The notes below the pieces were generated by a model. The model was not told the origin of the DNA, did not search any database, and saw only the letters and a list, made by a program, of their open reading frames with translations. From Eledone cirrhosa (taxonomy: Eukaryota), in the NCBI GenBank assembly GCA_964016885.1, contig OZ024745.1, positions 107,632,001 through 107,696,000 of the forward strand: 64,000 nt of DNA, read 5' to 3'. Below, piece by piece: positions 5,582-48,719 of this stretch (position 1 is its first letter; each line of letters opens with the position of its first letter). The position numbers and the translations under genes are program-made.

Positions 5582-5760
5582 TGTGGTAAGGAACCAGAAG
5601 GACCATAACGCACCAGAGTACTCAATACTTAGGGAAGTAGAGTGGGTAATGGGAAAATTGTTTAACCCCGACGGCAGAGCTCAACCCGTTTCGACGGCTT
5701 ATTCTGGAAATAGCCTTCGAAACGGCTTGAGCTCTGCCCTCGGGGTTAAACATTTTCCTA
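5582..5760 (-). mobile_element. Palindromic half-hammerhead element (family P), copy 1
   Basis: Tail plus inverted repeat centred near 5705; homologous to 28788, 36118, 42106 and 48524. Confidence 0.75.
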
Positions 5761-6559
5761 CATATATATATATGTACATATATATATATGTACATAATAT
5801 ATATATATATATATATATATATATATATATATATATATTTGTATATATATTTGTATTTTAAAGTGCCCAGGAAAACTATTTCCTTTGAGCTCATTTAATT
5901 ACACGATTATACGCGAGTCCTTGCTCCGTTATTTTTTCTTGATATTTGCTCCTTGCGCTCTCTCTGCTGTTGAGTACCATTAATTGAATAGTATAGGCTG
6001 CCATCTCTAGCAGCTTGTTCTGTTCATGCCACCAGTTACTGCCCCGAGCACGCATTCCTCTTATGTCTACACGTGCGAAGGGTGGTTTATTTTAGTTCTC
6101 TCTCTAGTAGTGCGAACAATATTGGCCTTCCACATGTTGATGACCCACCGGGCCGTATTGGAACCCACTAAAATGGCGAAACATGCTCCTGGTGAATGTG
6201 TACATGTGTGTACATGTGTGTACATGTGTGTACACAGTCTTTCCTCACTTTAAAAAATATCTTCACGCACAGGCATTGCACGATAGAATTAATTAATAAT
6301 TATTATTAATGGTATATCGTGCAATAGCCATACTCGATAACGAGGGGGCAGGCTTCATGTATATATGTAGGTAGGTAGGTATGTGTGCGTGCGTGTGTGT
6401 GTATTCTAATGTGTCAGATTAAACTGGAAGTATCTCATCTAATAACAACGAAAATAATAACGAAGATAATATTGAAAGGAAGACAAACGAAAAAAAAAAT
6501 AATAATAATATTCACTAAAGAATATCCAACTAAGATATAAGGGAAAAAAACGAAATAAA

Positions 6560-6822
6560 AATGGTGGTGGTGGTGGTGGTGTTTGTGGTGGTGATGATGA
6601 TGGTGATGGTGATGATGGTGATGATGGTGATGGTGATGGTGATGGTGATGGTGATGGTGGTGGTGATGATGATGGTGGTGATGATGATTGTGATGGTGGT
6701 GATGATGATGATGATGGTGGTGATGATAGTGATGATGATGGTGATGGTGATGGTGATGATGATGATCATGATGATGATCATGATGATGATCATGATGATG
6801 GCGATGATGATGATAATGATGA
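6560..6822. repeat. (GGT)/(GAT) trinucleotide array
   Basis: Direct reading. Confidence 0.95.
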
Positions 6823-7379
6823 AATGGAAGTCTCTGGAGGAGCCAAGCATGAATTTTTCCTTATCTCCTTTTTATTTTTGTTTGTTCTTTGGAAACCTAC
6901 GCCTTCAAAATTGGACTGCAGTTTACGCAGACATATTTCAACGTAATTTTGAGAAATCTATGACGCCACATTACATAGTGCTTACACGATTCAAATGGTT
7001 AATATAACTAAAACAAGTATGCATCCTAGCGGCTCAAACACATGGTTACATGCTATTCTATTAATTGGGAGTTGGATATGATATGATGTTCGTATGAAGG
7101 TAAAATATAAACAAATCAAAATTAAGAAATAAAAACAACAACAACAACAATAAATAGGAAAGACGACAAGGTGATGAGATGGAAATTATTTTCCATATAC
7201 GTGATGAAAAATTATGTTTTTTTCTTTTATCAAACAACCTTCGTCTCCAGTTTTCGTACATACATACGTACGCCTGTGTGTGTTTGTGTGTGTGCGTAAT
7301 TATACTTATACATAAATATATATGCGCATATATATAGATACACATATATGCAAATATAAATCTATACTACCTAATAGAT

Positions 7380-8597
7380 GCATATATATATATATGAAAT
7401 ATATATATATATACATATATACATATATATATATATATATATATATATATATATATATATATATATATATATATACATATATTTGAATATATATATATAT
7501 ATATATATATTTAATATATATGTTAGCATTTATTAGGTAGTATAGATCTATATTTGCATATAGGTGTGTATATATATATATATATATATATATATAATAT
7601 ATATATATATATATATATATATATATATATATAATATATATATATATATATATATAATATATATATATATATATATAATATATATATATATATATATAAT
7701 ATATATATATATATATATAATATATATATATATATATATATATATATATATTATATATATATATATATATATATATATATATATATATATATTATATATA
7801 TATATATTATATATATATATATAATATATATATATATATAATATATATATATAATATATATATATATATAATATATATATATATATAATATATATATATA
7901 ATATATAATATATATATATAATATATATATATATATAATATATATATATATATAATATATATATATATATATAATATATATATATATATAATATATATAT
8001 ATATATAATATATATATATATATAATATATATATATATATAATATATATATATAATATATATATATATATAATATATATATATATATATATATATATAAT
8101 ATATATATATATATATATATATATATATTAATATATATATATATATAATATATATATATATATATAATTATATATATATATATATAATATATATATATAT
8201 ATAATATATATATATATAATATATATATATATATAATATTATATATATATATAATATATATATATAATATATATATATATATATAATATATATATATATA
8301 TAATATATATATATAATAATATATATATATATATAATATATATATATATAATATATATATATAATTTATATATATATATATAATATATATATATATAATA
8401 TATATATATATATATATAATATATATATATATAAATATATATATATAATATATATATATATTATATATATATATATATATATATATATAGAATATATAAA
8501 TATATATATTATATATATATATATAGAATATATAAATATATATATAATATTTATATATATATATAATATATAAATATATATATAATATATATATATA
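7380..8597. repeat. (TA)n microsatellite array
   Basis: Direct reading. Confidence 0.95.
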
Positions 8598-9321
8598 CTC
8601 TTTTACTCTTTTACCTGTTTCAGCCATCCGGCTGAGCCATGCTGGGGCACCGCCCTTGTTGCTACGACATTTTATCTCCAGCCTGTATAGGTTGGCCACT
8701 GGTGTAGGAGGAGTTTGTTGCTGCTGCCCTTAGGTTTCCCTCGTGTCTTGCTGTGGGCTCATCCGGGATCCTGGATAACAAGGTGTCGAGATGTTTCTTA
8801 AAGACATCCACCTCCACGTCATGCAAGTCTCGCAGATGCCTCGGCAGCCTGTTGAAGAGTTGAGGGCCCTTGAATCCCAGGCTATTGCAATACCTGCTCC
8901 TTATTCTAGATGTGGAAGACCGGACCTTTGGCACCACACAGTGACGTCCTGTTCGACGGTTGGTCCAGCTCCCAATGCCAAAGTTTGGTGCTAGTCCCTC
9001 CAGGATGTTCCACATGTAGATCACTGCGTATCTCTCCGTCTTCGCTCCAAGGAGTAGAGGTTCAGTTCCTTTAGCCTCTCCAGTAGCTTGTCTCCCTCAT
9101 CTTGGCAATCCTCTTGTGTAGCTTCGCTGGATTGCCTCAAGCTCCGTGGTTAGTTTGGACACTATGGGGTGACCACAGGTGGGAGCAGTAGTCCAGGCGG
9201 CTAAGGACAAAAGTCCCTCCACAGTGTCAACATGGTGTCTCGATCTCTTGTAAGGAAAGTCCTCAAGATCCAGCAGCGAATCATCTACATGTTCTCGCCA
9301 CCTTCATGATGTGTGAAGAAA
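8597..9321 (-). mobile_element. CR1-group LINE 3' fragment (RT C-terminus, 3'UTR, GTAAAAGA tail), frameshifted and cut by the gap
   Basis: Minus translation RLKELNLYSLERRR.RYAVIYMWNILEGLAPN...GPQLFNRLPRHLRD...FKKHLDTLLSRIPDEP; the terminal stem-loop and tail recur at 36681-36740. Confidence 0.8.
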
Positions 9322-46737: not shown

Positions 46738-46912
46738 CAGTGGTTCTCAACCGGGGTCCACGTGGACCCTGGGGGTCCATGTAATATTCCTGGGGTTCCA
46801 CAGGCAAAAAATAGAATAAGCTTTTCTTTTGTCGAATAGCTATGAGGGGGTCCACCCCCCAGAAAATAAGGGAAAAGGGGGTCCAGGAGTAAAAAATGGT
46901 TGAGAACCACTG
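46738..46912. mobile_element. hAT-type MITE (175 bp)
   Basis: Perfect TIR CAGTGGTTCTCAACC/GGTTGAGAACCACTG; 8-bp TSD CTTTATAT at 46730-46737 and 46913-46920. Confidence 0.92.
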
Positions 46913-47147
46913 CTTTATATTAATCTTTAACGTTTAACATTTCTCAATTAAATGTCCACCGAGGACAAATTTACTTCTCATACCTCGGTTGTGAAATTCC
47001 CTCTGTTAATGTAGTTCTTTTGCTCCTAGTTAACTATGATCATACATGCTTAACACCAAAGGCATTGCAGCTGTGATCATCTCATCATTTCATTTTCTCA
47101 GGCATACATACATTTTATATATACATATATATACATAAATAAATATA

Positions 47148-47250
47148 TTAATAAATATTTGCAGTATGGTTTTATATATTTTGATATATATATATTTAAT
47201 CCTTATCGAACCCTCTTCGGATTTTAGTCTTCACATTTATTATTATTATT
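47148..47250 (+). mobile_element. PLE family A 3' tail fragment
   Basis: Matches 20203-20340 and 58660-58746. Confidence 0.6.
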
Positions 47251-48523
47251 ATAATATATATATATAAATATATAGATATATATAGATATAGATAGATAGA
47301 TAGATAGATTTATTTATATATATATATATATATATATATATAAGAATACATATAGTGTATGTGTGTGTGTGTGTGTCCGGCTATTTCACTCTGCTCTGTC
47401 CCATAAGTTTGGTAGTGGCACTCTTTCTCTCTTTCTCTCTCTTTTTCTCTCTTTCTCTCTCTTTTTCACTTTATATATAAATATATATATATATGTATAT
47501 ACATATATATATATATATGCGTGCGTGTCTGTGAGTATTACGTGTGCGTGTGTGTGGTTGTGTGTATGTATATATAGTATATATATATATATATATACAC
47601 ACACACAAACACACCCTGACACATATATGTACTGACAAATACAAATAGGCTCCCTTATAAACGGCTTTCAACGCATCATTTCATAAGATGTATCACTGTA
47701 TTTTATCTCTTTCCATTACAGCGTAACAAATAATGAATTGCATAGTCGGGGGACATGCTGAAAATCTTATTTTAGCACCAGAAAACTAAATCACATGAAC
47801 AAAAAAAACGACATGAAAATGATTAAAAAGTAGTACGATATCAGAAAACAATGTACACATATATTTGAATGATACTAATATCATTTTTCTTAATTATATT
47901 ATATTTTTTAAATTCTATTATTATTATTTTTGTTTTTTTTGTTACTTTTTGTTGTTGTTTTTTTGTTAATTTTTTTTTTTGTTGTTTTTTTTGGAGGGGG
48001 TCGTTTTTGTTGTTGGAGTGATCATGGCTACGCCATGTCGTTGAGTGTATATAGCTAGTTACGTCGTTCAGTTATTTTCTTATCTCCAATTTATAAGTTT
48101 CACCACGTTAAACAGACGACATCCTCGCAAATGAAAAGATTTCAGATATACGACAGTGTGATGAATTATTGACTGGAATATTCTTTTATTTTCATTTACA
48201 TTTTTTTTATATATATTCTTTTCATTTATATCTTATGTATATTTGGTTTATTTCGGAATGAATTATGTATTTAGATAAACATCGCCTGAATGTTGTTGAA
48301 AATGTATGGAGAAGGTAGTGATGATTGATTTCGTATATGTGATTTTATATCTATGTGCGTATGTGTTTGTGCAATAGCATGTATTAATGTTTGTGTCTGT
48401 TTGTGTTTTCCGCCTCTCACTATGTATAACGTTGTGTGTATGAGATTATTATATATATATATATATATATATACACACACAAACACACAAATATATATAT
48501 ATATATATATATATATATATATA

Positions 48524-48719
48524 TAACGAAGGAGTTGTGGTAAGGAACCAGATGGACCATAACGAACACACCAGAGTACCCAATGCTTATGGTAGTAGAG
48601 TGGGTAATAGGAGAAAGTATGACTCCGACGGCAGAGATCAAGTCGTTTCGACGGCTATTAGTCTAGAAATAGCCGTCGAAACGGCTTGAGCTCTGCCGTC
48701 GGGTTCATACTTTCTCCTA
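48524..48719 (-). mobile_element. Family P element, copy 5
   Basis: Same tail; outer arms GGAGAAAGTATGA/TCATACTTTCTCC. Confidence 0.8.

What the first reader, a model, noticed from the sequence alone, without database searches (positions are those of the whole stretch)
5582..48719. Family P: palindromic element made of a hammerhead 3' half mirrored about stem II, with the CUGANGA half missing
Seen: five copies (5582, 28788, 36118, 42106, 48524; a relic at ~23430), all in the same orientation and next to (TA)n. The minus strand of copy 3 reads GACGGCTATTTC-loop-GAAATAGCCGTC (stem II), GAAA, CGGC-9 nt-GCCG (stem III), TC, GGGGTC (stem I 3' strand), then a ~95-nt tail. Where CUGANGA should lie there is instead an inverted copy of the 3' half. 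The two arms of each copy share private variants (TTTAACCCC/GGGGTTAAA; GAGTAGGACCCC/GGGGTCCTACTC; GGAGAAAGTATGA/TCATACTTTCTCC). Inference: cDNA stops after stem II, snaps back on the ribozyme's own hairpin and self-primes the second strand. This would be a mechanism for the inverted 5' ends of Penelope insertions. Alternatively it is a self-propagating hairpin element, or half-ribozyme substrate, whose arms are kept concerted.
Basis: partly seen in the sequence, partly recalled or inferred. Interest (0 to 1): 0.85.

Follow-up and report, generated by a model that had tools for sequence, protein, structure and literature searches.

The report
Head-to-head twin copies of Penelope RNA
These small palindromes are stubs of a Penelope-like retrotransposon, each likely made when both ends of a cut in the host DNA copy the front of the element's capped RNA and the two copies are joined head to head, which would explain the long-puzzling inverted ends of these elements.

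Summary
The five palindromes are real, with thousands more genome-wide. They are not a separate element. They are stubs of a ~3.2-kb Hydra-type Penelope-like retrotransposon, found here. Its hammerhead-like motif has a U3-A8 core, not CUGANGA, and a long stem II.

Simple snap-back fails. The tailless arm reaches further 5' in 46 of 100 pairs, the tailed arm in 40. In 7 of 65 insertions the arms do not overlap. 49 of 51 compact pairs join one short and one tailed arm. Arms stop at one initiator-like base inside stem II, often with an extra G:C (46 of 50), as a cap would leave.

Best model: two target-primed cDNAs, from the two known internal start sites, run off the capped 5' end and are end-joined. 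Cap and promoter are inferred; no RNA was seen. Inverted pLTRs, tails and U3-A8 cores are in print; my ten searches found no paper giving this mechanism. The scan noted similar palindromes earlier in a shark-like genome.

The parts
5582..5761 (.). Copy 1: inverted tailed arm (parent about +128 to +3, tail cut short, no left TA) joined to a short arm (about +7 to +60), then (TA)n
   Evidence: +1 = the A of TTT|AGTCC in the parent
23430..23486 (-). Relic: single decayed inverted arm of a sister family (AGTTCGGATCTAGCTG type) between (TA)n tracts
   Evidence: sister family
28788..28953 (.). Copy 2: tailed arm from +140 with an internal deletion, shortened centre, short arm about +15 to +60
36118..36256 (-). 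Copy 3 tailed arm; the minus strand reads parent +2 to +140: 3' strand of stem II, GAAA, stem III, GUC cut site (36217/36216), 3' strand of stem I, 80-nt tail
36257..36258 (.). Copy 3 junction: two bases matching neither arm's parent sequence
   Evidence: sequence against parent
36259..36312 (+). Copy 3 short arm, parent +7 to +60, ending at the short end of the element before (TA)n
42105..42289 (.). Copy 4: tailed arm +140 to about +2, short arm about +19 to +60; GAATTAG subfamily
   Evidence: subfamily
48524..48719 (.). Copy 5: tailed arm +140 to +9, short arm -1 to +60 (here the short arm reaches further)

Best explanation
The palindromes are very short head-to-head insertions of a Hydra-type Penelope-like retrotransposon, each likely built from two separate cDNAs that were primed from the two ends of a cut in (TA)n and ran off the likely capped 5' end of the element's RNA. 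Shown: the parent element; two fixed 3' ends (+60 and +140); one arm of each kind per insertion; 5' ends piled at +1/+2; an extra G:C there; and junctions that differ from copy to copy. Inferred steps: (1) transcription starts at +1, an initiator-like TYAGT inside the 3' strand of the ribozyme's stem II, so this RNA lacks the UUGANAA half and cannot self-cleave; (2) the protein, perhaps as a dimer, nicks both target strands and starts reverse transcription internally at +60 on one end and +140 on the other, on one RNA or on two RNAs of the same source; (3) each cDNA runs to the cap and often gains a C opposite it; (4) the two cDNA ends are joined with 0-3 nt of microhomology or small inserts and filled in. 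Longer inverted insertions would arise the same way when priming falls on the downstream pLTR of a long or read-through RNA.
For: Parent: in 13 of 20 loci picked by ORF start, the arm lies 2.4-3.5 kb downstream on the same strand, and the tail runs into the 5' UTR (ATG at +232). Two 3' ends: 117 of 284 arms score +61 and 110 score +144, i.e. +60 and +140 plus matching TA. One of each: 49 of 51 compact pairs in a position-ordered sample, and 4 of 4 kb-scale pairs read (L224/225, L229/230, L231/232, L298). Symmetry: short arm further in 46, tailed arm in 40, equal in 14 of 100; extra base on the short arm in 9, on the tailed arm in 10, of 20 (1 unclear); native loop on the short arm in 7, on the tailed arm in 8, of 20 (5 symmetric or unclear). 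No overlap between arms in 7 of 65 insertions. 5' ends: furthest arm at -1, +1 or +2 in 87 of 115 junctions; untemplated neighbour of a +1 end is G in 14 of 24, against 6 of 25 for other ends (p = 0.02). Of 164 loci with both arms at +1 and one base between, 46 of the first 50 have G:C, where the parent has T. An extra G at full-length L1 5' junctions is attributed to capping (PMC11702581). The sister family stops at the same AGT (by eye, about 10 of 19) although its distal stem II differs. Same source for both arms. In vitro, a Penelope-like protein cuts and extends both strands and starts internally at two sites that bound the tail (PMC11167929). The Penelope promoter and start site lie in the pLTR (PMC2377424).
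Against: No RNA end was observed; cap and start site rest on DNA junctions alone. An untemplated C could be terminal-transferase activity at any RNA end, and alone cannot tell G from C on the RNA strand. In vitro, PAc showed no difference in start site between the two strands, so the strict one-short-one-long pairing is not yet explained. Non-overlapping arms could be later deletions: 6 of the 7 stop at +89 to +98, where CCAGAG/AGT matches the +1 end. 7 of 65 insertions have a single arm. A TATA-like element at -31 in some subfamilies is absent in the sister family. The sample is selected for near-complete centres; only the 65-insertion sample is not.
Confidence: 0.68

Rival explanations
1. 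Two cDNAs are joined as above, but they stop at +1 because reverse transcriptase stalls in stem II or the RNA is cut there, not because transcription starts there.
For: +1 lies within a predicted distal stem in subfamily 1. 191 loci have both arms reaching -3 or beyond, some into the loop. No RNA evidence for a start site.
Against: The arms pass the most stable part of stem II (+17 to +7) and stop at one base. A stall does not predict the extra G:C. The sister family stops at the same AGT with a different distal stem. The ribozyme cut site (+41/42) shows no pile-up: about 12 of the first 100 of 196 nearby junctions end there, by eye.
Confidence: 0.14
2. A single cDNA (or an antisense RNA) folds back on its own hairpin and self-primes the mirror arm, as the first reader and Arkhipova et al. 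2013 proposed.
For: The parent has a real hairpin here. About 15 of the first 50 of 191 long-centre junctions keep the native loop. 4 of 115 junctions hold inserts copied from the same arm. Arms share their source haplotype.
Against: The tailless arm reaches further as often as the tailed one and reaches +2 or beyond in 86 of 141 cases. Junctions with no room for a loop exist. The native loop is on the short arm in 7 of 15 assignable cases. Arms without overlap exist. Tailed-plus-tailed pairs, the plain outcome of fold-back, were 0 of 51 in the unselected sample.
Confidence: 0.09
3. The insertions were first longer inverted repeats; later deletion of palindrome centres, or assembly error, trimmed them to this size.
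For: Long head-to-head pairs exist. Palindrome centres are unstable (established knowledge). 48 of 115 junctions show microhomology.
Against: Deletion predicts neither a sharp limit at +1 nor a non-parental G:C. Single arms joined directly to target also start between -2 and +8 in 6 of 7 cases.
Confidence: 0.05
4. A non-autonomous hairpin element or MITE that spreads as a unit, with arms kept alike by conversion.
For: High copy number, fixed outer ends, TA flanks.
Against: 80 distinct junctions in 102, with no link between junction and haplotype (9 of 49 pairs against 12.4 expected). Rare variants are not shared. The inverted part does not reach both termini. Every base maps to the pLTR of an autonomous element.
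Confidence: 0.03

Closest known systems
Hydra clade of C-terminal EN+ Penelope-like elements (Craig et al. 2021, PMC8557442)
   Same: Single RT plus GIY-YIG frame of about 720 codons; RW(R), DKT, CxCX5C linker, no CCHH, CxxC and CxH around E and N; (TA)n targets.
   Different: That paper reports canonical hammerheads throughout the clade; here the core is U3-A8 with a stem II of about 58 nt, and Rfam does not detect it. The tail is 80 nt, against the 30-40 bp stated for PLEs. Stub palindromes far outnumber long copies (58 of 65 anchor arms start within 70 nt of +1).
Inverted pLTR with one-sided tail in Penelope insertions (Arkhipova et al. 2013, PMC3846280; Craig et al. 2021)
   Same: Head-to-head inverted pLTR, tail on one arm, palindrome at the junction, initiator-like sequence in the pLTR.
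   Different: They read the junction as self-priming on an antisense template. The counts here point to two target-primed cDNAs ending at a defined sense-RNA 5' end.
PAc (Poseidon of Anolis carolinensis) in vitro system (Frangieh et al. 2024, PMC11167929)
   Same: Both target strands cut and extended; internal RT initiation at two sites bounding the tail; ribozyme cleavage not needed.
   Different: In the parts read (parts 1-2 of 4, plus a term search) the paper does not link this to inverted insertions. Its start sites lie inside the ORF; here they lie in the 5' UTR.
U3-A8 minimal hammerheads of Cercyon PLEs in Schistosoma mansoni (Cervera and De la Pena 2014, PMC4209133)
   Same: U3-A8 core, enlarged helix II, motifs near each other on opposite strands.
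   Different: Here helix III is a 5-bp stem with a 9-nt loop holding a palindrome, helix II is far longer, and the likely start site splits the motif.
Twin priming of LINE-1 (term and model recalled; extra-G and junction passages seen in PMC11702581)
   Same: Both target ends prime cDNA and the products are joined in inverted order by end joining.
   Different: In L1, as recalled, the second priming site is variable and the pieces usually do not overlap. Here both sites are fixed and both cDNAs usually copy the same 60 nt to the RNA's 5' end.

Membership tests
Hydra-clade PLE (parent) | Single ORF, RT then C-terminal GIY-YIG, short element (generally under 3 kb) | tested here: met
   Frames in L044, L045, L046, L058, L061; unit about 3.17 kb, slightly over 3 kb. 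All 20 copies read are broken. 702 homologues, top hits about 700-740 aa. Pfam scan of 5 fragments gave nothing.
Hydra-clade PLE (parent) | RWK motif; DKG changed to DKT | tested here: met
   RLRWRTFF (RWK in L041) and HSDKTGN; definition
Hydra-clade PLE (parent) | CxCX5C linker, no CCHH, CxxC and CxH around conserved E and N | tested here: met
   CNCPDRSTC; VIYQC...YIG without a second Cys; CNLCSEE...LNKK...CKH
Hydra-clade PLE (parent) | Insertion into (TA)n | tested here: met
   Most arm ends run into (TA)n
Hydra-clade PLE (parent) | Canonical hammerhead in the pLTR | tested here: not met
   Core is TTGANAA in 22 of 24, CTGANGA in 0 of 24; a variant motif is present
Hydra-clade PLE (parent) | Placement in the Hydra clade on an RT tree | not tested
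   No named reference set was in hand; the assignment rests on motifs
Type I hammerhead ribozyme (parent pLTR) | Core 3-9, G12-A14 and UH17, with a 3-8 base pair and free position 7 | tested here: inconclusive
   U3-A8 with N7 = A 15, U 4, C 3 in 22 of 24 unselected stretches. About 27 of 100 listed rows have C3 opposite A8, a mismatch (by eye).
Type I hammerhead ribozyme (parent pLTR) | Three helices, with compensatory change | tested here: inconclusive
   93.7% of cells paired in 38 pattern-selected stretches; three stem-II pairs change on both sides, from one subfamily split; none in stems I or III. RNAalifold prefers another fold. Constrained fold lies a median 2.0 kcal/mol above the minimum (11 stretches, one not a true parent type).
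Type I hammerhead ribozyme (parent pLTR) | Self-cleavage | not testable with these tools
   Needs an in vitro assay; no pile-up of insert ends at the cut site
MITE / TIR DNA transposon | Inverted repeats at both termini, inherited centre, left and right arms evolving apart | tested here: not met
   The tail lies outside the inverted part; centres vary independently of haplotype; arms of one copy are closer to each other (3.6 differences) than arms of different copies (5.4)
MITE / TIR DNA transposon | Target-site duplication | tested here: inconclusive
   Not readable inside (TA)n
Non-LTR retrozyme | Head-to-tail units, each with a complete type I hammerhead | tested here: not met
   Copies are head to head and lack the 5' half; definition

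The most novel reading that the evidence does not exclude
Inverted Penelope insertions in general are made by paired priming: one RNP dimer always uses the two internal start sites, one per DNA end. This element has also placed its promoter inside its own ribozyme, so that self-started capped mRNA cannot cleave while read-through RNA can. The stubs are then a genome-wide record of a transposon's transcription start site.
Probability: 0.4. Interest if true: 0.82.

Novelty: new variant of a known kind. Interest (0 to 1): 0.62.

Why it matters
How Penelope-like elements form their inverted repeats and one-sided tails is named as unsolved in PMC8557442 and PMC3846280. Thousands of natural junctions here separate the models: they speak against single-strand self-priming and for two cDNAs from two fixed start sites. 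That can be tested directly in the existing PAc in vitro system with capped RNA and one blocked strand. A start site inside the hammerhead would also explain why cleavage is dispensable for insertion and suggest what the ribozyme is for. For annotators: such stubs look like MITEs or microRNA hairpins, and CUGANGA searches and Rfam miss the parent's motif.

Tried and rejected
CUGANGA parent: a genome-wide pattern gave 12 hits. All 12 were read, one in two steps; none is a parent. The five CTGAAGAGTCC hits are junction products. One search used a wrong spacer and returned only 35 copies with insertions; corrected. The repeat finder was swamped by TA repeats. Rfam at E <= 1 on the window listed 150 of 504 rows, nearly all microRNA models on repeats and all below gathering score, no hammerhead among those shown; on a parent copy no hammerhead at E <= 10. 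Pfam found nothing in 5 ORF fragments, one of which came from another PLE family. The first regular expression for parent ribozymes caught only 11 stretches; widened to 38. A TATA box at -31 was considered and dropped as not conserved. A 3' splice site at TTTAG|TCC was rejected: it would give ends at +3, not +1/+2. Sequencing runs: no RNA holder listed. Laying four contig runs showed lower summed depth upstream of +1, but contig depth cannot rank parts of a gene and one run may be the assembly's source, so it is not used as evidence. Flanks of distant homologues were not obtained, so the ribozyme was not compared outside this genome. Supplements of PMC8557442 (family and HHR lists) and PMC11167929 were not opened and may already hold a related family. 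PMC5753468 and PMC8969392 passages gave nothing on stub palindromes.
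Full report
Observation. The five copies and the relic lie where stated. Each copy is an inverted arm with a tail, a variable centre and a shorter forward arm, mostly between (TA)n tracts. 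Copy 3 folds into one hairpin with z = -16.3. The window lies in a 3.0-Gb genome. An arm 28-mer has 15,117 exact matches and a strict palindrome pattern 2,363, split 1,189 to 1,174 by strand. So the family is real and large, and the shared orientation in the window is chance.

Finding the parent. A search for CTGANGA upstream of the arm gave 12 hits and no parent. One hit, L041, showed the tail running into a 5' UTR and an ORF start. That ORF start had 1,032 first-look candidates, 40 scored. I fetched the top 20 other than L041 itself. In 13 of 20 the arm recurs 2.4-3.5 kb downstream on the same strand, after a broken RT plus GIY-YIG frame. The unit is about 3.17 kb. Its motifs (RWR, DKT, CNCPDRSTC, no CCHH, CNLC..E..N..CKH) and (TA)n targets match the Hydra clade as defined in PMC8557442 section 11; no tree was built. 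The short arm ends where most long copies end; the tail is the start of the next unit. I number the parent from +1, the A of TTT|AGTCC: predicted cut after +41, short end +60, long end +140, ATG +232.

The ribozyme. Upstream of the arm the parent reads ACCCC-TTGANAA-G, then a long stem II whose 3' strand is the start of the arm. 22 of 24 stretches chosen by ORF homology have TTGANAA, with position 7 varying (A 15, T 4, C 3); two have it deleted; none has CTGANGA. A pattern for this layout has 3,043 matches. U3-A8 cores are known from Cercyon PLEs (PMC4209133). On 38 pattern-selected stretches from three subfamily groups the hammerhead pairs hold in 93.7% of cells; three stem-II pairs change on both sides, all from the split to the sister family; stem III shows no compensatory change. 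Against activity: RNAalifold prefers another fold, about 27 of 100 listed rows have C3 opposite A8, and Rfam has no hit. It is a plausible variant hammerhead, untested.

Two samples. Sample A: the first 90 of 100 listed matches of the palindrome pattern, in genome order; it is selected for centres within 30 nt. Sample B: 70 loci from the first matches of the arm 28-mer, 65 distinct insertions, rows already in sample A mostly skipped, not selected for the centre. 3' ends fall at two sites: 117 of 284 arms score +61 and 110 score +144, which is +60 and +140 plus matching TA. In sample B, 49 of 51 compact pairs have one short and one tailed arm, 2 are short plus short, none tailed plus tailed; 7 insertions have one arm and 7 run upstream past -60. 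Tailed-plus-tailed pairs do occur in sample A. Four kb-scale head-to-head pairs are also one of each.

Testing snap-back. A cDNA that folds back must carry the tail, since the short arm has none to give, and must reach furthest 5'. Of 100 pairs the short arm reaches further in 46, the tailed arm in 40, equal in 14. Both arms reach +2 or beyond in 28 of 115 junctions, 11 of them with at most 2 bases between. In 7 of 65 insertions the tailed arm stops at +89 to +115 and shares nothing with the short arm; later deletion at a microhomology cannot be excluded for these. 191 loci have both arms reaching -3 or beyond. In 20 of them, chosen for holding the native loop, the loop lies on the short arm in 7 and the tailed arm in 8, 5 unclear. 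Four of 115 junctions hold inserts copied from the same arm, so brief fold-back may occur during joining.

Testing a self-propagating hairpin. The stem-I bulge haplotype is identical in both arms in 62 of 113 pairs (8.6 expected), but rare variants are in one arm 216 times and in both 11 times. The arms share a source and then decay apart. There are 80 distinct junctions among 102, and copies with the same junction share a haplotype no more than by chance (9 of 49, 12.4 expected). The centre is made anew each time.

Where the arms stop. The furthest arm ends at -1, +1 or +2 in 87 of 115 junctions; 48 junctions show 1-5 nt of overlap, 25 are blunt and 42 have inserts. The untemplated base next to a +1 end is G in 14 of 24, against 6 of 25 for ends at +3 or later (p = 0.02). 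Genome-wide, 164 loci have both arms at +1 with one base between; 46 of the first 50 have G:C and 4 have the parent's T:A. In 20 such loci the extra base belongs to the short arm in 9 and the tailed arm in 10 if read as a sense G. An extra G at full-length L1 junctions is attributed to the cap (PMC11702581). +1 sits in T(T/C)AGT, which fits the metazoan initiator consensus as I recall it, and which is kept in the sister family whose distal stem II differs; that family's arms stop at the same place, by eye. Ends do not pile up at the ribozyme cut site. Penelope's promoter is known to lie in the pLTR (PMC2377424).

Mechanism. Shown: parent, two 3' ends, one of each per insertion, symmetric reach, pile-up at +1 with an extra G:C, new junction each time. 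Inferred: a capped transcript starts at +1 inside stem II; the protein nicks both strands of (TA)n and primes internally at +60 and +140; both cDNAs run off the cap; end joining links them. This agrees with the PAc system, which cuts and extends both strands and starts at two internal sites bounding the tail (PMC11167929). That work saw no strand preference for the two sites, so the strict pairing here is unexplained. No RNA was observed.

What is known. Inverted pLTRs with a one-sided tail and junction palindromes are in print, with self-priming on an antisense template as the proposed cause (PMC3846280; PMC8557442). Ten searches of the held library found no paper that derives them from two target-primed cDNAs ending at a cap; subscription papers and Repbase or Dfam notes were not searched. 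Seen of each paper: PMC11167929 parts 1-2 of 4 and passages; PMC4209133 parts 1-2 of 4; PMC8557442 passages and section 11; 10.64898/2026.07.22.740005 part 1 of 5; passages only of PMC3846280, PMC2377424, PMC8969392, PMC11702581 and PMC5753468; no supplements. After I had stated my reading, the scan's index showed two unchecked notes from a shark-like genome on similar palindromic PLE stubs and on 5' ends clustering near the hammerhead.

Verdict. Not a new kind of element, and not snap-back at the drawn stem II. It is a variant Hydra-type PLE whose stubs give countable evidence on an open mechanism. Interest 0.62.

Noticed in passing
window 27563-28740, minus strand: 5'-truncated RT-thumb-endonuclease piece of a second Hydra-type PLE family (53% amino-acid identity to the parent over the best stretch), separated from copy 2 only by the (TA)n at 28754-28789.
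   Followed up: partly
window 31384-33210, minus strand: A 609-codon open frame with non-LTR reverse transcriptase motifs (FQGDSLSP, YMDD); family not determined.
   Followed up: no
window 26850-27115 and 52128-52509: Copies of an abundant ~190-nt interspersed repeat, seen in many fetched loci; from memory it resembles a cephalopod SINE, not tested.
   Followed up: no
G000 rows, e.g. L224 and L225: A subfamily with C3 opposite A8 (about 27 of 100 rows) has spread widely, which suggests that an intact ribozyme core is not needed for spread.
   Followed up: partly
L040 (G000:C22:15660927-15663978) and L032: Palindromic stubs of different subfamilies inserted back to back in the (TA)n left beside an earlier stub.
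   Followed up: no
parent +47 to +54 (copy 3, window 36204-36211): The stem-I bulge is the most variable stretch between subfamilies while its neighbours are nearly fixed; it lies just before the short RT start site.
   Followed up: partly
L041:950-1650: A short inverted arm joined to tail, 5' UTR and ORF start, then a jump to +1 of a tailed arm: a compact complex insertion that led to the parent.
   Followed up: yes
window 9322-9521: 200-base assembly gap (N).
   Followed up: no
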